Positions 1 to 8,445 of a stretch of DNA of 64,000 bases are shown here, one piece after another. The notes under the pieces were generated by a model. It searched no databases. It had not been told where the DNA came from and saw only the letters and a program-made list of their open reading frames with translations. The position numbers and the translations under genes are program-made. The stretch is from an uncultured Peptostreptococcus sp. (GTDB lineage Bacteria; Bacillota; Clostridia; Peptostreptococcales; Peptostreptococcaceae), in assembly GCA_963520775.1 (NCBI GenBank), contig CAUQSL010000007.1, positions 3,837-67,836 on the forward strand. Direction: 5' to 3'. Position 1 is the stretch's first letter; each line of letters starts with the position of its first letter.

Positions 1-675
1 CTCTTTTCCGTACACACCAATAGAATATCCACCATTTATTGACACAAGCTTCATACAAGGCACATCCGTATCACTATCTCCAATATACACCATATTTCTA
101 AATGGAACTCTAGTTTTATCTTCACTTAAATAGTCGTTGACTTTCGCGTCATTAACTTCAAGAGCACCCTTTTTTATTCTAAATAAAAATTGAGTTTTAT
201 TAGTGTAATTAATACACTGTGCAGGCCATACTGCTACCCCATCCTCGTCATAGTAAAATGAGCTCGCATAAATTTTTTTAAAATATTTTGCTACTTCAGT
301 CGCTTCTATCATTTCTTTCAAACCTGATGAAATGATGTAATGTTCTACCATTATCCCTTTTTCTTGACCATATCTATTAATCCTATCAAACCAGGTATTC
401 ACTCCAGGATATAAAGCAACCTTTGAACCATATTCGTTTAGTGTCCTTGTATTAATAATATGCTTTCCTCTTGACTCTTTAGCCATTTTATACATCCATG
501 CCAAGTTTTGATCCATATCATTATCACTAGCTAGTTTATTGGACTCAGCCCAAAATTTTTCAACTTCTTGTCCTAATGATTGTATAAATCCTTGAGCTTG
601 CATATCATTTGGTGAAAGAGTTTTATCAAAATCATAACAAATAGCTAAAACTATCTCATTTTTGTTAGTAATCAT
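1..675 (-). CDS. HAD-superfamily hydrolase, 3' end outside the window; not in the ORF track
   Basis: Manual translation from ATG at 675 (RBS GAAAGGA): MITNKNEIVLAICYDFDKTLSP...YIISSG...YIGDSDTDVPCMK. HAD motif I (DxDxT) and motif IV (GDSxTD) present; frame open to position 1. Confidence 0.85.
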   Translation of the reverse strand, partial: MITNKNEIVLAICYDFDKTLSPNDMQAQGFIQSLGQEVEKFWAESNKLASDNDMDQNLAWMYKMAKESRGKHIINTRTLNEYGSKVALYPGVNTWFDRINRYGQEKGIMVEHYIISSGLKEMIEATEVAKYFKKIYASSFYYDEDGVAVWPAQCINYTNKTQFLFRIKKGALEVNDAKVNDYLSEDKTRVPFRNMVYIGDSDTDVPCMKLVSINGGYSIGVYGKE

Positions 676-718: not shown

Positions 719-738
719 CAGAGATAAACAATAATTTA
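719..738 (+). repeat. Putative recombination site A (CAGAGATAAACAATAATTTA)
   Basis: Exact 20-bp reverse complement of 1467-1486 inside hsdS2. Confidence 0.85.
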
Positions 739-884
739 CCGACTCGTCCGCGCAACGCACGAATAGCTGTGAAGCAGCGTAGGCATACACCGAATCCAAA
801 CGGATGCTTGTATCCGGACGTCAAGGTGTCTGGCAGAGGCGGTAATGATGAAACTACGGAGCAGTTTTTGTATCTATTAGCGGC

Positions 885-2006
885 TTAAAGGTCGATGTTG
901 GAGACATCAAGTTCGCCGGACATAAGTTTGGGCAATAACGAATCACGAGTTGAAGCTAATATTGTGTTTTCCTCCTTGTGCTGTCCTATCATTTCAAAAA
1001 TTGGTGTAACAATTGATGTGTAACTATGAACTTCTTCAATATCTAAACTTGATATGGACATAGAAGCAATGTGTTTGGGGTAAATATGCGGTTGAGCCGA
1101 ACCTGTTTGAGCGTCAAATATTTCTTTTTGGCGTTTTTTTAGAAGTACATACCAAAAATAAACATCATCTGTCATTGAGCTATCAATAAAAGATGAGTCT
1201 GACGACCAAACAGGGACATTCCATAGACTTACATACCCTGCATTAGCTCCTGATGCCGAAATTGTAAGTATTGGCGATTGAGTATTCGCTACATTGTGAT
1301 ATGTAGAGGGCTCTAATCCTCCAGCAATTACGGGGATATCGCCAAAAATTGCATTTTTAGAAAGTAAGCTTTTTCCACGTCTGGGTGTGATATAGTCACC
1401 TATGGTACAATAACCATTTGAAATGTCAGGAAACATATTATCAAATATCGCCTGAGCTTGCTGCTCTAAATTATTGTTTATCTCTGTGTTTTGCCTAATT
1501 TTTTCATCTATAACACTGAGAATAGCAACAATATTTTTTTGAGTGTCAATATCAGGAAGTAGCACTTCTAAATTTTCAATATCTGATGGTTTTAGAGACG
1601 GATAAGCCGATACACTCTGTTCTGCTATTGCTTGCAAATATTCTGTTATCTCTTTTTGAGTTAGCACATAATATATGTAGTCTGGAATCGCTTTCTCTGT
1701 GTTTACATCAATGACTGCAAAGCCAGTAGATACCAAAAAATTCTTGGGCTGTTCCTTGATAATTCCATAGTGCAACTGGTTAGGTCTTACGGTTGAATAA
1801 ATAATACTATTCGATTTTACTTTTCTTCTTGCCCTGCTCGGTAGCTTATCCATTGATGTGTTGATATATTGTATTTCAGAAATACGATTCATAGTAATGT
1901 TACCGGTATCCAAGTAATTTACAAATTGCCAATTCTCTTTTGAAGAATATGTGTCCTGATTTGTCAAAACTATTGTACCAAGTCTAACTAATTTCCATTC
2001 GGCCAT
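885..2006 (-). CDS. hsdS: Type I R-M specificity subunit, copy 2 (two TRDs)
   Basis: Central conserved region INNNLEQQAQAIF and C-terminal RDSLLPKLMSGELDV; likely start MAEWK at 2006 after RBS GAGAGGA. Confidence 0.93.
   Translation of the reverse strand: MAEWKLVRLGTIVLTNQDTYSSKENWQFVNYLDTGNITMNRISEIQYINTSMDKLPSRARRKVKSNSIIYSTVRPNQLHYGIIKEQPKNFLVSTGFAVIDVNTEKAIPDYIYYVLTQKEITEYLQAIAEQSVSAYPSLKPSDIENLEVLLPDIDTQKNIVAILSVIDEKIRQNTEINNNLEQQAQAIFDNMFPDISNGYCTIGDYITPRRGKSLLSKNAIFGDIPVIAGGLEPSTYHNVANTQSPILTISASGANAGYVSLWNVPVWSSDSSFIDSSMTDDVYFWYVLLKKRQKEIFDAQTGSAQPHIYPKHIASMSISSLDIEEVHSYTSIVTPIFEMIGQHKEENTILASTRDSLLPKLMSGELDVSNIDL
1457..1486 (-). repeat. Putative recombination site B in the hsdS2 central conserved region
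   Basis: 26-bp CTTGCTGCTCTAAATTATTGTTTATC (1457-1482) is identical to 3712-3737; its core is inverted relative to sites A and C. Confidence 0.85.
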
Positions 2007-2019
2007 AATCTTTTCCTCT

Positions 2020-3009
2020 CTATCCAATATATTTTCGATGAGCAATTTTTACATTGCTCTGTTTTACCATTGCATACTGCAAGGTCGTATCTATCTTTCT
2101 ATGCCCCAAGAGCTGTTGTAATTGCTCAATGGGCATTCCTTTATCTATTGCCATAGTTGCAAGGGTACGCCTGAATTTATGTGGGTGTACCTTTTGCAAA
2201 CCTAATTTCTTTCCGTATTCTCTTAATCTCACTTCAACCCCTCCTATTTTCAGTCTTTTGTGAGGTGATTTCAAAGATACGAAAAGCGCCGGATTATCAT
2301 CTGTTCTGCTTTTCAAGTAATTCTGCAAATGTATCTTTGTTCTTGCATCAAAGTAAACAACCCTTTCTTTACTGCCCTTACCGAAAACAATACATTCCCT
2401 CTCATTGAAATCAATATCATTGCGGTTAAGCAGCACCATTTCTCCTACACGCATACCAGTAGAAGCAAGCATATCTATAATTGCCAAATCTCTCAGTTCC
2501 GTGCAGTTATCTCTCATAAGCTCCAACGCTTCATCAGAGTATGTTTCTTTGATGTTCGTGCCGGTTTTAACCTTATGTATTCGCCTGACAGGACTTTTCA
2601 GTATATAGTCCTCGTCCTCAAGCCACGAAAAGAAACTTGAAAGAATACGGCGTATATTGTCTATTGTAACTTTACTTGACTTTTTCTTTTCCTGATACTC
2701 TGTCAGGTATCTTCTTATATCATCTGTAACTATGCGTTTGACATCTTTTTGGAGTTCATCAAGCATAGCTTCAATAGTAGATTTGTAGTATTTAAGGGAT
2801 TTCTCGGAACAGCCCTCAATTCGTTTTGCCGACAGAAACAGTTCCATATAGTTCTGCTCCGAGTTGTTTTCTTGTTTCTTGTTTTCTGTTACATCATAAT
2901 TTGCAAAGGTATATTGCAAAACTTCTTGTAACTTCTCATTTTGTGCGTTGTTCAAGTATGGTAACATTCCTTGAACAATATCTTTGATTAAATCTTGTTT
3001 CACAGTCAA
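2020..3009 (-). CDS. Tyrosine recombinase/integrase associated with the hsdS genes
   Basis: Catalytic motifs TGMRVGE, GKGSK, HKFRR, LGH, QY; lies between two hsdS genes; RBS AAGGAGGA (start may be GTG at 3003). Confidence 0.93.
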   Translation of the reverse strand: MTVKQDLIKDIVQGMLPYLNNAQNEKLQEVLQYTFANYDVTENKKQENNSEQNYMELFLSAKRIEGCSEKSLKYYKSTIEAMLDELQKDVKRIVTDDIRRYLTEYQEKKKSSKVTIDNIRRILSSFFSWLEDEDYILKSPVRRIHKVKTGTNIKETYSDEALELMRDNCTELRDLAIIDMLASTGMRVGEMVLLNRNDIDFNERECIVFGKGSKERVVYFDARTKIHLQNYLKSRTDDNPALFVSLKSPHKRLKIGGVEVRLREYGKKLGLQKVHPHKFRRTLATMAIDKGMPIEQLQQLLGHRKIDTTLQYAMVKQSNVKIAHRKYIG

Positions 3010-3102
3010 TCCTCCTTATTTATTCTTAGAGAACGACTACGGGGCGGAAGTCCCCCGATATTAACTTCTGCCACCCTCAGAAGTTATGGGTAAGTTATAT
3101 GC

Positions 3103-3116
3103 TAAACAATAATTTA
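3103..3116 (+). repeat. Putative recombination site C (TAAACAATAATTTA)
   Basis: 14-bp core 5 bp from the hsdS1 stop codon, inverted relative to the hsdS-internal copies. Confidence 0.8.
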
Positions 3117-3121
3117 ATGGC

Positions 3122-4252
3122 TTAAAAGTCGATATCGGAGACATCGAGTTCGCCGAACATAAGCTTCGACAACAGCGTGTCTCTCAACTCTGCCATCTTA
3201 CCATTTTCCTGAATGTTAGCTTCGACTTGAGCCATGAGTTGTCCAGCAAGCGATTCAAACTCATTTAGTATCTCCTTGTCAGGCAAAAGAATAGCAGTTT
3301 TATTCATATCTCCTTGGGTAATCAAGGGTTGCGTAGAACCTCTATTCATGGAATGATAGTCAATTCTTTGAAGGATCTGATATGTGTACTCATAGAAATC
3401 ACTCGTGATGACCAGTGTATTATCCGATGTCCAGCATGGAATATTGAACCGCTGTATAGTACCATGGGTACCGACACGACCTGTCACAAGAATTCTATCA
3501 ACATGGTTAGCTTCAGAGGTATAACCCATTACCGAAGCTGCTCCAACAAGGGGGATTATAGCTTCTTCGGTTTTATCGATAGATTTCATCGGAGGACGTT
3601 TCCCGCTTGTAATAGAAGCGATATTGGCTAAAATACCTTTCTTCCACGTCTGGGGGCAAATGCCATCAAACCGATTAAAGTCCTCAAACCATGCTTGGTA
3701 AACTGCATATACTTGCTGCTCTAAATTATTGTTTATCGCATTGTTCAATGCTATTTTGTCATCAAGATCTCTTAGTATACTTCCTATTTTTCTTTGCTCT
3801 TCGATATTAGGCAACTCTATATCCAAATCAGCAACTACATCAGTTTGTACTCTTTGGCGACCCGATGACCCAACCATAGATTTAATTGCTGGATTACGAA
3901 CCAATGGGCTACAAACCAAATAATACAAAAAATCAGCATCACTAACATCTTCAATAGAACGAAAAACAATGTATTCAGTTGATCCAAAACCAACTTCATC
4001 ATCATCCAAAATAGAAACCTTTGAAATTTTTCCATTCTCCAAACAAGGTGTTATTCTTGCCATTATCGTGTCATCATTTCTAAATTTAGCTCCACCCTTA
4101 TACTCTTCCCAAATGAATTCTGTAATATCCCTACAAAACGGTTGCAATTTATCCATTGGTATTTTTTTTGCCATGATGCCTTTACCAATACTTTCTTTGG
4201 GATTGATATGAGCAATTTCGGATAGCTTTTTTATACGCCAATTACACTTCAT
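3122..4252 (-). CDS. hsdS: Type I R-M specificity subunit, copy 1 (coupled to hsdM)
   Basis: TRD motif ARITPCLENGK...GSTEYIV, central INNNLEQQ, C-terminal LRDTLLSKLMFGELDV; ATG overlaps the hsdM 3' end. Confidence 0.93.
   Translation of the reverse strand: MKCNWRIKKLSEIAHINPKESIGKGIMAKKIPMDKLQPFCRDITEFIWEEYKGGAKFRNDDTIMARITPCLENGKISKVSILDDDEVGFGSTEYIVFRSIEDVSDADFLYYLVCSPLVRNPAIKSMVGSSGRQRVQTDVVADLDIELPNIEEQRKIGSILRDLDDKIALNNAINNNLEQQVYAVYQAWFEDFNRFDGICPQTWKKGILANIASITSGKRPPMKSIDKTEEAIIPLVGAASVMGYTSEANHVDRILVTGRVGTHGTIQRFNIPCWTSDNTLVITSDFYEYTYQILQRIDYHSMNRGSTQPLITQGDMNKTAILLPDKEILNEFESLAGQLMAQVEANIQENGKMAELRDTLLSKLMFGELDVSDIDF
3712..3737 (-). repeat. Putative recombination site D in the hsdS1 central conserved region
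   Basis: Identical 26-bp direct repeat of 1457-1482. Confidence 0.85.
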
Positions 4253-5768
4253 ACCCAATCGCCCCCAGTTTCTTTCTTATTTCTTCTTCCAATTCATGAG
4301 ATTTTTTAAACATATCAGAAAGTTCCGAGGTCAATCTCTTCATCTTTTCTTCAAATGGCTCTCCATCATCTTCCTGTTCTTCAATTCCTACATATCTACC
4401 AGGAGTTAAGATATAATCTTGTTTTGCTATATCTTCTATTGATGCTATCGCTGAAAATCCCTTTTTCTCTTCTAATACTCCATTTTGAAAATCTTCAAAG
4501 GTCTTAGCTAATAAGTCAATGTCACCAAGACTTCCATCTTCTTGTATCCCTTCCGTAAAATCTCTGTGTTTTCTATCAACCATATATCCCATTTTACGAG
4601 CATCGATAAATAGCGTCTTACCTTTTTGCTTTTTATTTTTAGTGATGAACCACAATGTCACTGGAATAGTTACGCTATAAAATAACTGTGTCGGTAAAGC
4701 TACAATCCCTTCAATCAAATCATCTTCTATGATCTTTCTTCGGATTTCCCCTTCTCCAGAAGATTGGGATGATAATGCTCCGTTAGCAAGTACTAAGCCT
4801 ATTTTCCCATTAGGTGCTAAGTGGTGAATCATATGTTGTATCCAAGCATAGTTTGCATTTCCTGATGGTGGAGTTCCATATTTCCATCTAACATCATCTT
4901 TTAATTTATCTGCGCCCCAATTAGAAAGATTAAATGGAGGATTTGCCATAATGAAATCCGATTTCAATGTTTTATGGATGTCATTAAAAAATGTATCGGC
5001 ATGATAAGAACCGAAATTAGCATCAATTCCTCTTATTGCCATATTCATTTTTGCCATCTTCCATGTATCTGCATTAGATTCCTGTCCATAAACTGAAATA
5101 TTTCCTCGGTTGTTGCTATGAGCCTGCACAAATTTTTCACTCTGTACAAACATACCACCGCTGCCGCAACAAGGATCATACACTCGGCAATTATTGAAAG
5201 GCTTCAGTATAGCAACGATAGTCTTTACAATACTTGAAGGCGTGTAGAATTCTCCACCCTTTGTTCCTTCATAGGAAGCAAACTGAGCAATACAATATTC
5301 ATATGTCCTTCCCAGTAAATCTTTGCTTACTTCTGTTCCATCCATTTTTACTTCGTTGGTAAATAAGTCAACAACTTCCCCCAATACTCTTTTATCCAAA
5401 TCTGGGTTGGCATAGTTCTTAGGCAAAACATTTTTTAAACTCGCATTTTCTTTTTCAATTGCCCTCATTGCATCATCGATTACTGTACCAATTTCAGGTG
5501 TGTGTGCAGCGGAAGAAATCTTGCTCCAACGAGCTTCTTCTGGCACAAAAAAAATGTTTTCTTCTGCATATGCATCCCTGTCATTTTCGAAACCATCACC
5601 TTCTTTTAAAAGTTCCTCATAACGCTTTTCAAAGGCACTGGATATATAACGAAGAAAAATAAGTCCAACAATTACTTTTCGATATTCAGCAGCAGGAATA
5701 TGTCCCCAAAGAACACAAGCTGCGTCCCAAATTTGTTTTTCAAAACCTATCTTTGTGCTATCAGCCAT
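4242..5768 (-). CDS. hsdM: Type I R-M N6-adenine methyltransferase subunit
   Basis: GEFYTP, DPCCGSGG (motif I), ANPPF (motif IV), LTPGRYVG. Confidence 0.96.
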   Translation of the reverse strand: MADSTKIGFEKQIWDAACVLWGHIPAAEYRKVIVGLIFLRYISSAFEKRYEELLKEGDGFENDRDAYAEENIFFVPEEARWSKISSAAHTPEIGTVIDDAMRAIEKENASLKNVLPKNYANPDLDKRVLGEVVDLFTNEVKMDGTEVSKDLLGRTYEYCIAQFASYEGTKGGEFYTPSSIVKTIVAILKPFNNCRVYDPCCGSGGMFVQSEKFVQAHSNNRGNISVYGQESNADTWKMAKMNMAIRGIDANFGSYHADTFFNDIHKTLKSDFIMANPPFNLSNWGADKLKDDVRWKYGTPPSGNANYAWIQHMIHHLAPNGKIGLVLANGALSSQSSGEGEIRRKIIEDDLIEGIVALPTQLFYSVTIPVTLWFITKNKKQKGKTLFIDARKMGYMVDRKHRDFTEGIQEDGSLGDIDLLAKTFEDFQNGVLEEKKGFSAIASIEDIAKQDYILTPGRYVGIEEQEDDGEPFEEKMKRLTSELSDMFKKSHELEEEIRKKLGAIGYEV

Positions 5769-5910
5769 TTTTTAGATCTCCTAATATCATATAATTTTAA
5801 TTTAATAATCTATATATAATTCTATTTTCTAAACACTTTATATTATATCATATTTCTGTACATTAACAGTACTTATATATTTGATAATCATTATATTTTT
5901 TATAAAAAAA

Positions 5911-5960
5911 ATAGCGTTGGGAGAGAATTTTCTCTCACCAACGCTAAATATTATACAACC
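5911..5960 (-). terminator. Hairpin terminator; dispersed repeat copy 1
   Basis: TAGCGTTGG..GAGAG/CTCTC..CCAACGCTA stem with U-tract on the minus strand; near-identical to 63215-63263. Confidence 0.75.
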
Positions 5961-6039
5961 TTTTATTCATAGTCACCAACCCGATAGTTTAGAGATGGAT
6001 TTTTCTAACCAACCCGATAATTTATACTATCCTTTTAAT

Positions 6040-6615
6040 CTATTTTAATATTTTCTTTACAGTTTTCTTTAGCACTGGAACAACATCTTGAACAAACCAA
6101 GGATTCTTTGCCTGCCATCTAAAATTCAAGGGACTTGGATGAACGATTGGAAAATACTTAGGTAAATACTCATCAAAGCACCTGACTGTTTCTGTAAGAT
6201 TCTTCTTTGTCCTACCCTTGATATAGTAATCCATAGAATATTTACCGATAAGAATTGTAAGTTCAATGTTGTTTAGTTCCTTAAGTATAGGTCCATGGTA
6301 TTCCTGAGCAATAAATTTTCTAGGTGGCAAATCACCTGTTTTAGCCTTGCCAGGATAGTAAAAATCCATTGGAACTATTGCAATTTCTTTAGAATAAAAC
6401 GTATCTTTATCTATACCCATCCAAGAAATAAGGGTTTCTCCAGATTTATCATTAAATGGAATAAGTGATTCCTCCACCTTTTTTCCAGGTGCCTGACCTA
6501 CGATTAGAATCCTAGCTTCCTTATCTACTTGAAGTATTGGTGGTATGTTCTTATTTGTATATTCGGTATTTCTTTTGTCTAGTTCAATTTGCTTTATTAT
6601 ACCTTTTAGCGACAT
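6040..6615 (-). CDS. Uracil-DNA glycosylase superfamily protein
   Basis: GQAPG and HPSP motifs; likely start MSLKG at 6615 after GGAGG. Confidence 0.85.
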   Translation of the reverse strand: MSLKGIIKQIELDKRNTEYTNKNIPPILQVDKEARILIVGQAPGKKVEESLIPFNDKSGETLISWMGIDKDTFYSKEIAIVPMDFYYPGKAKTGDLPPRKFIAQEYHGPILKELNNIELTILIGKYSMDYYIKGRTKKNLTETVRCFDEYLPKYFPIVHPSPLNFRWQAKNPWFVQDVVPVLKKTVKKILK

Positions 6616-6683
6616 AGTATAACCTCCGATACTAAAAAACAAATATCTCACCATTAAATAGTGAGGCTTAAATAATATGTAGC

Positions 6684-6860
6684 TTATAGCTCTATAACCT
6701 TGTTCTCGCCCTTTGCTGAGTAAAGTATTACTATACCAGTCTCAAAGTAGAATGTTGACATTATATCTTCTTCCATTGAGTAAATTGAGCTGATAACATC
6801 GATATCAGAATCCATGATAGCAATTCTTGCCTCACGGCTTTCATCTTCAGCTAACCACTT
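6684..6860 (-). pseudogene. Possible 3' gene fragment of unknown family
   Basis: 58 open codons KWLAEDESREARIAIMDSDIDV...GENKVIEL*, with an in-frame stop just upstream and no clear RBS. Confidence 0.3.
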
Positions 6861-6909
6861 GAAACCTTAGAATAATCAGTAAAATCAATGGCTTTAGATA
6901 GTGACTTAA

Positions 6910-8445
6910 CTACTCCCACTCAATAGTTCCAGGAGGCTTACTAGTTATATCATACACAACCCTGTTAACCCCTTCAACCTCATTGATTATCCTATTTGAG
7001 ATCCTCTCCAATACATCATAAGGTATCTTGTACCAGTCAGATGTCATACCGTCACTTGATGCAACAGCCCTCAATCCAACTAGGTGGGCATATGTTCTTT
7101 CGTCACCCATTACACCAACAGTCATTACGTCTGGTAGTGTAGCGAAGGCCTGCCATATTTCCTTGTATAGGCCAGCCTTTCTTAGCTCGTCCATATATAC
7201 AGCATCGGCTTCTCTTAGGATGTCGCACTTTTCCTTAGTTACTTCTCCAATTACCCTGATTCCAAGTCCTGGTCCTGGGAATGGGTGTCTAAATATTAGG
7301 TTTTCTTCTATGCCTAATTCTAGACCCATCTTTCTAACCTCGTCCTTGAATAATTCTCTTAGAGGTTCTATTATTTCCTGGAAGTCTACATCTTCTGGCA
7401 GGCCACCAACATTGTGGTGAGACTTGATTGTTGCGGATTCTCCACTACCGGACTCTACTATGTCTGGGTAAATTGTTCCCTGCACCAAGAAGTCCATCTT
7501 TCCTAGTTTCTGAGATTCTGCCTCAAATACCCTGATGAATTCTTCGCCTATTATTTTTCTCTTTGCTTCTGGCTCTGTTACTCCTGCCAGCTTGCCTAGG
7601 AACCTGTCTTCAGCATTTACCCTGATTAGGTTCATACCGAACTTCTGTCTAAAGATTCTCTCAACGTCATCTCCCTCGTTCTTTCTTAGTAGACCATGGT
7701 CAACGAATACGCAAGTTAAATTATCGCCTATAGCCTTGTGCATTAGGGCTGCTGCTACTGATGAGTCTACACCACCACTTAGGGCACATAGGGCCTTCTT
7801 ATCGCCTACCTTTGCCTTTATTTCTGCTACCTTATCATCTATAAATGAGCTAGTAGTCCAGTCCCCACTTACCTGACAAATCTCGTATAGGAAGTTAGTG
7901 ATTATCTTATCACCTTCAATTGAGTGCTCTACTTCTGGGTGGAACTGTACACCATATAACTTCTTGTCTACATTGTGCATAGCTGCTACAGGACAATTCT
8001 TTGTAGTTGCTACTACATCAAAACCATCTGGTACTTGAAGTATATAGTCTGTATGGCTCATCCATACCTGGTTACTTGATATTCCTTCAAAAATTGGTGA
8101 TTGACCATATTCTATAAGAGTCTTACCATATTCTCTAGTCTGGTTGTCCCCCTTCTGGACCTTACCACCTAGTAGGTGGGCCATTAACTGGTCACCGTAG
8201 CATATCCCTAGTATTGGTATACCTATTTCAAATATTTCAGATGAAATCTTTGGTGAGTCTTCTATGTAGGCACTATTAGGTCCACCTGTAAATATTATAC
8301 CCTTTGGATTTTTTTCTTTTATTTTTTCTATGCTAGTAGTATATGGTAGAATTTCACAATATACATTATTTTCCCTTACTCTTCTGGCAATTAGCTGGTT
8401 GTACTGACCTCCAAAATCAATTACAAGAACTATCTCGTGTTTCAT
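6910..8445 (-). CDS. guaA: GMP synthase (glutamine-hydrolysing)
   Basis: [42 protein letters not shown]. Confidence 0.98.

What the first reader, a model, noticed from the sequence alone, without database searches (positions are those of the whole stretch)
719..3737. Four-site hsdS shufflon with alternating-orientation recombination sites
Seen: the core TAAACAATAATTTA (TAAA-CAATAA-TTTA, short inverted arms around an asymmetric 6-bp spacer) occurs four times: A 725-738 (+), B within 1467-1486 (-), C 3103-3116 (+), D within 3722-3737 (-). B and D lie in the INNNL codons between the TRDs of each hsdS. A and C lie downstream of each hsdS stop. A tyrosine recombinase sits in the middle. Established: recombinase-driven hsdS rearrangement gives phase-variable methylomes (pneumococcal ivr/SpnIII and tvr/SpnIV). 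Inference: both hsdS genes are co-oriented and look static, but each second TRD is an individually invertible cassette (A-B, C-D). D-A or B-C inversions followed by a second flip would give all TRD1 x TRD2 combinations.
Basis: partly seen in the sequence, partly recalled or inferred. Interest (0 to 1): 0.8.

Follow-up and report, generated by a model that had tools for sequence, protein, structure and literature searches.

The report
Four-site restriction-specificity switch, rare state
This is a known kind of bacterial DNA switch that rebuilds the DNA-reading part of a restriction enzyme by flipping gene halves at four short sites, here caught in an uncommon setting in which both reading genes are complete at once.

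Summary
The four 14-bp sites are real and lie as described. The locus is hsdM–hsdS1–tyrosine recombinase–hsdS2–HAD gene–hsdR, all on one strand. It has the layout of the S. suis SsuCC20p phase-variable Type I system (PMC10790761): four identical TAAA-N6-TTTA sites, two invertible TRD2 cassettes and a central recombinase. Of 239 recombinase-homologue loci, 111 resolved all four sites. Cassettes occur in both orientations and both slots, and near-identical loci differ by a flip. An inverted cassette truncates its HsdS. Among relatives with the recombinase co-oriented with hsdM, 91 of 97 have exactly one complete hsdS, extending the S. suis rule. The window is one of only four loci with two complete hsdS, a state not seen in S. 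suis. Best reading: a recombinase-driven specificity switch that mostly makes coupled exchanges, with rarer single flips. Switching in this genome is inferred; no reads of it were found, and an assembly artefact for the two-gene state is not excluded. The scan noted this kind of locus before on other DNA (e1-4733332, e1-2221697). New member of a known kind.

The parts
4242..5768 (-). hsdM, Type I methyltransferase subunit (508 aa)
   Evidence: PF02384 + PF12161; ORF
3122..4252 (-). hsdS1, complete (376 aa): TRD1a (about 3736-4252) + TRD2a; start overlaps the end of hsdM
   Evidence: PF01420, two stretches; length; start read
3722..3735 (-). site D, in the INNNL codons of hsdS1
3103..3735 (.). 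invertible cassette C-D carrying TRD2a
   Evidence: 96% identical over 633 bp to a cassette that lies inverted in the other slot of locus L164
3103..3116 (+). site C, 5 bp past the hsdS1 stop; joined to a TRD1 it reads NNNL-M-A-stop
2020..3009 (-). Xer-like tyrosine recombinase (329 aa from TTG; a GTG start at 3003 is possible), catalytic residues intact
   Evidence: 64% identical to the recombinase of L311, a locus with the SsuCC20p repeat sequence
885..2006 (-). hsdS2, complete (373 aa from ATG 2006): TRD1b (about 1481-2006) + TRD2b
   Evidence: PF01420; length
1467..1480 (-). site B, in the INNNL codons of hsdS2
725..1480 (.). invertible cassette A-B carrying TRD2b and a 146-bp tail
   Evidence: 20-bp perfect inverted repeat; run X1 holds contigs with the inverted-type junctions at A and B
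739..884 (.). 146-bp tail between the hsdS2 stop and site A; similar tails in L117, L133, L141, L143, L177; function not established
   Evidence: no credible Rfam hit; folding z -1.4; single copy in the genome
725..738 (+). site A, outer site on the hsdR side
1..675 (-). HAD-family hydrolase gene between hsdS2 and hsdR (runs off the window; hsdR follows at G000:C7:227-3388)
   Evidence: PF12710; ORFs on contig C7

Best explanation
[quoted passage not shown] The tyrosine recombinase binds the TAAA/TTTA arms and exchanges strands across the asymmetric 6-bp spacer at four identical sites, ordered > < > < along the operon. Two fixed-frame TRD1 half genes each read into a slot, and two TRD2 cassettes can be flipped or can swap slots. 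A forward cassette completes an HsdS; an inverted one stops translation just after INNNL and gives a probably inactive half protein. Four specificities are reachable. Exchanges are mostly coupled or filtered so that exactly one hsdS is complete; single flips and recombinase-inverted states are rarer. This assembly shows the uncommon state with two complete hsdS, predicted to give two methylation motifs at once. Shown: anatomy, family-wide rearrangement, in-frame products. Taken from S. suis: dependence on the recombinase, expression of the downstream hsdS. Inferred: switching in this strain, inactivity of the halves, the cause of the coupling.
For: Exact sites far above chance. Same layout in 111 of 239 homologue loci. 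The spacer is identical at all four sites in 108 of 108 loci with full flanks, with nine spacer variants between loci; this is partly by construction, since sites were picked at up to 1 mismatch, but the mismatches fell in the arms. Near-identical loci differ by a flipped cassette: L132/L191 (100% over 671 bp, reversed), L078/L079 (99.8%), L060/L150 (96.9%). 19 of 52 genome-contig ends and 8 of 76 metagenome-contig ends within 3 kb of the recombinase stop within 2 nt of a core. Run X1 has contigs 98-99% identical to TRD1a, TRD1b and the recombinase, with both TRD1 joined to cassette 3' ends and site A joined to a cassette 5' start. SsuCC20p: same layout, 14-bp repeats, switching abolished without xerD, downstream hsdS expressed (PMC10790761).
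Against: No run holds this locus whole (best share of words 0.20), so alternative junctions in this genome are not shown. The cassettes in X1 are not this window's TRD2s (almost no cover of either). The two-complete state was never seen in S. suis assemblies or long reads. Both 3' sites deviate from the family's flank consensus, so the locus could be slow or stuck, although flank deviation is no commoner in same-orientation loci (3 of 9 vs 26 of 103, p 0.69). Homologues were found through the recombinase, so deleted, locked loci are invisible in the counts.
Confidence: 0.87

Rival explanations
1. The two-complete state is an assembly mosaic: the culture mixes one-complete states (cassette 1 forward/2 inverted, and the reverse), and a short-read assembler stitched the two forward cassettes across the shared 1.6-kb middle.
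For: The cassettes are 1.6 kb apart, beyond short-read phasing; the genome is in 41 contigs. The other three two-complete loci (L133, L151, L157) all come from metagenome assemblies. S. suis long reads had none.
Against: Mixed junctions tend to break contigs at the cores, whereas this 72-kb contig runs through all four. A mosaic would need two states at similar frequency (inference). A zero-complete state also appears in an isolate-titled assembly (L059).
Confidence: 0.2
2. Each exchange is an independent single inversion; the one-complete-hsdS excess comes from selection or instability (two specificities cost more self-cleavage, none leaves no defence), not from coupled chemistry.
For: Single-event states exist: 7 of 98 same-orientation loci and 9 recombinase-inverted loci; L132/L191 differ by one flip.
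Against: S. suis long reads showed no intermediates, and the authors propose coordinated double recombination. Recombinase-inverted loci always hold one complete hsdS whatever the cassette orientation, yet 7 of 9 still have opposite cassettes (not separable from either model: p 0.14 against the co-oriented group).
Confidence: 0.35
3. Shuffling runs by excision and reintegration of a circle between the direct pairs (D with B, C with A), as at the pneumococcal tvr locus, alongside or instead of inversion.
For: D/B and C/A are direct copies. One isolate assembly holds a separate 2,369-bp contig (L030) that begins and ends on same-direction cores and carries one cassette plus the recombinase segment, 100% identical to that in L029. 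Two S. suis isolates lack xerD, TRD2 and TRD3. The S. suis paper describes TRDs switching place.
Against: L030 may be a contig broken at both cores. Excision-reintegration keeps the product of the three segment orientations (my deduction), so it cannot alone give a single-cassette flip such as L132/L191.
Confidence: 0.3
4. The locus is a frozen relic in this strain: two constitutive hsdS genes, no switching.
For: Rare state; altered flanks at A and C; no reads of this genome to show switching.
Against: Recombinase full length with all catalytic residues; four perfect cores, two of them outside coding sequence; relatives with the same 146-bp tail occur with the cassette in either orientation and slot.
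Confidence: 0.1

Closest known systems
SsuCC20p of Streptococcus suis (Roodsant et al. 2023, PMC10790761; Willemse and Schultsz 2016, PMC5198162)
   Same: Order hsdM, TRD1, repeat-flanked TRD2, recombinase, TRD3, repeat-flanked TRD4, passenger genes, hsdR; four identical 14-bp TAAA-N6-TTTA sites; lone TRDs ending INHHL-V/A-A, like INNNL-M-A here; clearly homologous recombinase and HsdM (by eye against Table S1). TRD1a resembles S. suis TRD3, whose half-site is GAG (by eye).
   Different: Spacer CAATAA instead of TCATCA; two complete hsdS here, never in S. suis; HAD gene instead of two hypothetical genes; 146-bp tail in the second cassette; the paper's search at over 90% identity found the system in streptococci only.
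'Epigenetic invertons' catalogue (Huang et al. 2020, PMC7672463)
   Same: Supplementary repeat table lists cores of this family: TAAACGATAATTTA (Clostridium saccharolyticum, Fusobacterium equinum) and TAAATTATCATTTA (Treponema denticola, Akkermansia muciniphila); the text names an hsdM-hsdS-invertase-hsdS-hsdR type in E. faecalis T8.
   Different: The loci tested there use several distinct repeat pairs, and the paper states that inversions always keep both reading frames; here one repeat serves all four sites and inversion truncates.
Pneumococcal tvr / SpnIV (Kwun et al. 2018, PMC6265443)
   Same: [quoted passage not shown]
   Different: Direct repeats only, two repeat types, excision-reintegration, TvrAT and attenuator; here alternating inverted sites and no toxin-antitoxin pair.
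Pneumococcal ivr / cod / SpnIII (PsrA/CreX; Huang 2020 passages and search listings)
   Same: Recombinase-driven TRD exchange at short inverted repeats within hsdS.
   Different: Several repeat classes, some long, and silent oppositely oriented donor hsdS genes (from PMC10790761 passages, and recall).

Membership tests
SsuCC20p-type four-site Type I shufflon | Order hsdM, TRD1, cassette, recombinase, TRD1', cassette, hsdR, co-oriented | tested here: met
SsuCC20p-type four-site Type I shufflon | Two identical sets of 14-bp inverted repeats flanking the two TRD2 cassettes | tested here: met
   same TAAA-N6-TTTA format as the repeats
SsuCC20p-type four-site Type I shufflon | Recombinase homologous to SsuCC20p XerD | tested here: met
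   64% identity over 332 columns to the recombinase of L311, which bears the S. suis repeat sequence; long identical stretches with the Table S1 XerD by eye; no computed alignment to the published protein
SsuCC20p-type four-site Type I shufflon | Exactly one complete hsdS in every observed state (an observed property of the S. suis locus) | tested here: not met
   two complete ORFs here; met in 91 of 97 co-oriented relatives. So this is the same design, not SsuCC20p behaviour in the strict sense
SsuCC20p-type four-site Type I shufflon | Alleles coexist within a clone, dependent on the recombinase | not testable with these tools
   no run holds this locus whole; only relatives' junctions
SsuCC20p-type four-site Type I shufflon | Allele-specific m6A motifs | not testable with these tools
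   needs methylome sequencing
tvr / SpnIV | Direct repeats only, two repeat types | tested here: not met
   one repeat type in alternating orientation
tvr / SpnIV | tvrAT toxin-antitoxin genes before the recombinase | tested here: not met
   only 93 bp between site C and the recombinase start; no ORF of 60 aa or more there
ivr / cod / SpnIII | Silent, oppositely oriented donor hsdS genes and several repeat classes | tested here: not met
   both hsdS co-oriented; one perfect repeat class

The most novel reading that the evidence does not exclude
The recombinase works on all four sites at once, so the 8 recombinase-forward states fall into two closed sets. The three ways of pairing four sites turn a one-complete state into exactly the other three one-complete states (the S. 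suis alleles A, D, E, H). From this window's state they give only two-complete or zero-complete states. This strain would then run the same hardware as a dual-specificity / restriction-OFF toggle, entered by one rare single flip. The closest laid relative (run X1) shows both TRD1 joined to cassette 3' ends, the zero-complete partner state, and a short non-coding cassette tail is enriched among same-orientation loci (4 of 9 vs 5 of 103, post hoc p 0.002).
Probability: 0.2. Interest if true: 0.65.

Novelty: new member of a known kind. Interest (0 to 1): 0.33.

Why it matters
The switch itself is known. Two things add value. First, the SsuCC20p design, reported from streptococci, is widespread among gut and oral Firmicutes and beyond, and its one-complete-hsdS rule holds across that range (91 of 97). 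Second, the mechanism behind that rule is stated to be unknown (PMC10790761), and a locus that starts on the wrong side of it is a ready test: coupled four-site exchange predicts toggling between two specificities and none, whereas independent flips predict a quick return to one-gene states.

Tried and rejected
Degenerate 3' flanks as the cause of the two-complete state: not supported (3 of 9 vs 26 of 103, p 0.69). The 146-bp tail as a structured RNA or repeat family: no credible Rfam match (one microRNA hit at 26 bits against a cut-off of 90, outside the tail), folding z -1.4, single copy. Promoter/terminator scan: counts at shuffle level (18 vs 21.4; 4 vs 3.5), nothing concluded. Active half-HsdS homodimers: considered; the S. 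suis wild-type methylome showed only two asymmetric motifs although the lone TRD3 is transcribed, and the cut falls inside the central helix (alignment to 1YF2), so rejected as the main reading; not modelled. X2 junctions (TRD1a to a cassette 3' end; a TRD2a-like 3' end beside a flank that matches the hsdR side of L166) may come from several strains and were given little weight. The 17-nt S. suis motif scan gave 94 stretches, of which 3 carried Type I R-M genes (L311, L341, L357). Full-text search for six core variants found 2 unrelated papers. The fifth exact core (C2:54568) and a 1-mismatch copy (C2:129196) have no hsdS called nearby (for the latter; the former's context looks intergenic) and fit chance. 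Plasmid hits (13 records) were not mapped.
Full report
OBSERVATION. The core TAAACAATAATTTA occurs exactly four times in the window: A 725-738 (+), B 1467-1480 (-), C 3103-3116 (+), D 3722-3735 (-). About 0.0007 copies are expected per 3.1 kb and 0.36 per genome; the 1.70-Mb, 33% G+C genome has one more exact copy on another contig. All genes lie on the minus strand: hsdM (4242-5768), hsdS1 (3122-4252), a tyrosine recombinase (2020-3009), hsdS2 (885-2006), a HAD hydrolase gene, then hsdR just left of the window. B and D encode INNNL between the TRDs; C is 5 bp and A 146 bp beyond the stops. In reading direction the sites run > < > <. The recombinase keeps R187, K211, H277, R280, H303 and Y312 (read).

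WHAT A FLIP DOES. An in-silico walk over the four inverted pairings gives 16 states, with all four TRD1 x TRD2 fusions in frame. An inverted cassette stops its HsdS 2 residues (cassette C-D) or 49 residues (cassette A-B) after INNNL. The cut falls inside the central helix (alignment to 1YF2). From the window's state the new fusions need two flips with the recombinase left inverted, or three with it forward.

RELATIVES. Of these 239, 111 showed four sites in the > < > < order; 128 were dropped (short contigs, no core found after the recombinase, or other layouts). With the window, 112 loci were classed. Recombinase co-oriented with hsdM: first cassette forward/second inverted 41, the reverse 50, both forward 4 (window, L133, L151, L157), both inverted 3 (L056, L059, L132). 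Recombinase inverted: 9. Orientation unknown: 5. Without the window, 91 of 97 have exactly one complete hsdS (binomial p 1e-20 against independence; kin are not independent, but merging loci with 97% identical middle segments leaves 90 against 7). Among isolate-titled genomes the count is 18 of 20, with two zero-complete and no two-complete locus. The spacer is the same at all four sites in 108 of 108 loci with full flanks while nine variants occur between loci (partly by construction, as sites were chosen at up to one mismatch). Of 27 cassette families shared at 90% or more, 15 occur in both orientations and 12 in both slots; the window's C-D cassette is 96% identical to an inverted second-slot cassette in L164. 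L132 and L191 are 99% identical and differ by one reversed 671-bp cassette; L078/L079 and L060/L150 show the same. Contig ends cluster on the cores: 19 of 52 and 8 of 76 ends within 3 kb of the recombinase.

READS. No indexed run holds the locus whole (best share 0.20). Four of 24 runs were laid. X1 has contigs 98-99% identical to TRD1a, TRD1b and the recombinase at depth 3-5; TRD1a and TRD1b continue through the core into cassette 3' ends, and site A continues into a cassette 5' start. These are the inverted-type junctions, but the cassettes are not this window's, the run is a mixture, and contigs drop rare variants. Switching in this genome is therefore inferred, not seen.

HOW IT WORKS. Established for tyrosine recombinases (own knowledge): arms are bound, strands are exchanged across a spacer that must match, and spacer direction sets inversion or deletion. 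Here one site type serves all junctions, so cassettes can flip, swap slots or be excised. The strong excess of one-complete states shows that outcomes are coupled or filtered. My deduction: the three ways of pairing four sites turn one one-complete state into exactly the other three, which are the four S. suis alleles; the window's state belongs to the other set, whose members have two complete hsdS or none. Single events do occur (7 same-orientation and 9 recombinase-inverted loci), which gives a way between the sets. The data do not separate coupling from selection: recombinase-inverted loci, where gene number cannot select, are 7 of 9 opposite (p 0.14 against the co-oriented group). A role for circles is open: L030 begins and ends on same-direction cores and shares its recombinase segment at 100% with L029 from the same assembly. 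The two-complete state could be an assembly mosaic (about 0.2); the other three cases are metagenomic.

COMPARISON. The closest described system is SsuCC20p (PMC10790761; I read parts 1-2 of 6, the Discussion, passages, supplement 1 and part 1 of 26 of supplement 2). It has the same order, 14-bp repeats TAAATCATCATTTA, recombinase-dependent switching and an expressed downstream hsdS. No assembly or long read had two complete hsdS, only truncated ones, or an inverted xerD, and the authors call the mechanism unknown and speculate on coordinated double recombination. A stored locus with that repeat sequence, L311, has a recombinase 64% identical to ours. PMC5198162 (part 1 of 4) gave the first description. 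Huang 2020 (PMC7672463; outline, sections 14, 17-19, part 1 of 21, supplement search) lists cores of this family in four other genera. tvr (PMC6265443, passages) shares the 2+2 layout but uses direct repeats. PMC9881135, PMC7394358, PMC11741434 and PMC6122466 were seen as passages only and add general context. Five searches found no paper with this exact core or a cross-species count of the one-complete rule; the library lacks most subscription papers, and unread supplements may hold such loci. Two earlier scan notes describe four-site loci on other DNA; I had reached SsuCC20p before reading them and did not check their loci.

VERDICT. Real, and a new member of a known kind. Interest is modest (0.33): the design is published, but this locus is a rare exception to a family-wide rule whose cause is untested.

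Noticed in passing
L212, L079, L202 (full ORF); L078, L037, L039, L040, L052 (similar 204-208-bp tails): Some TRD2 cassettes carry a passenger: a 68-aa cysteine-rich ORF right after the hsdS stop, inside the invertible unit, so it flips with the cassette. Not searched against families.
   Followed up: partly
window 739-884; L117, L133, L141, L143, L177, shorter forms in L049, L226, L261: A conserved non-coding cassette tail with an internal inverted repeat; 4 of 9 loci with such a tail have same-orientation cassettes against 5 of 103 without (post hoc Fisher p 0.002).
   Followed up: partly
L056:4749-10451: Three TRD1 halves, three inverted cassettes and two recombinase copies in tandem: a duplication between direct sites or a misassembly; no complete hsdS.
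   Followed up: no
   Followed up: no
L259:4440-12912 and L265: Variant with the recombinase directly after hsdM and two different repeated spacers (TTCTCA and TGATAA) in direct orientation, tvr-like.
   Followed up: no
L028:7841-8023 (G000:C2:193886-194024): A 139-bp fragment 94% identical to hsdM (window about 5548-5686) lies near the end of another contig of the same genome, with no other hsd gene called there.
   Followed up: partly
L311:6004-6672: The cassette (second-position) TRD of this locus resembles the window's first-position TRD1a by eye, hinting that TRDs move between positions over longer times.
   Followed up: no
window 5770-8445: The R-M block sits next to a uracil-DNA-glycosylase-family gene and a GMP-synthase-like gene (name from recall of the sequence, no call); guaA 3' ends are common integration spots (recalled). 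Only 1 of 14 same-genus genomes matched the recombinase segment at length, in line with horizontal gain.
   Followed up: no
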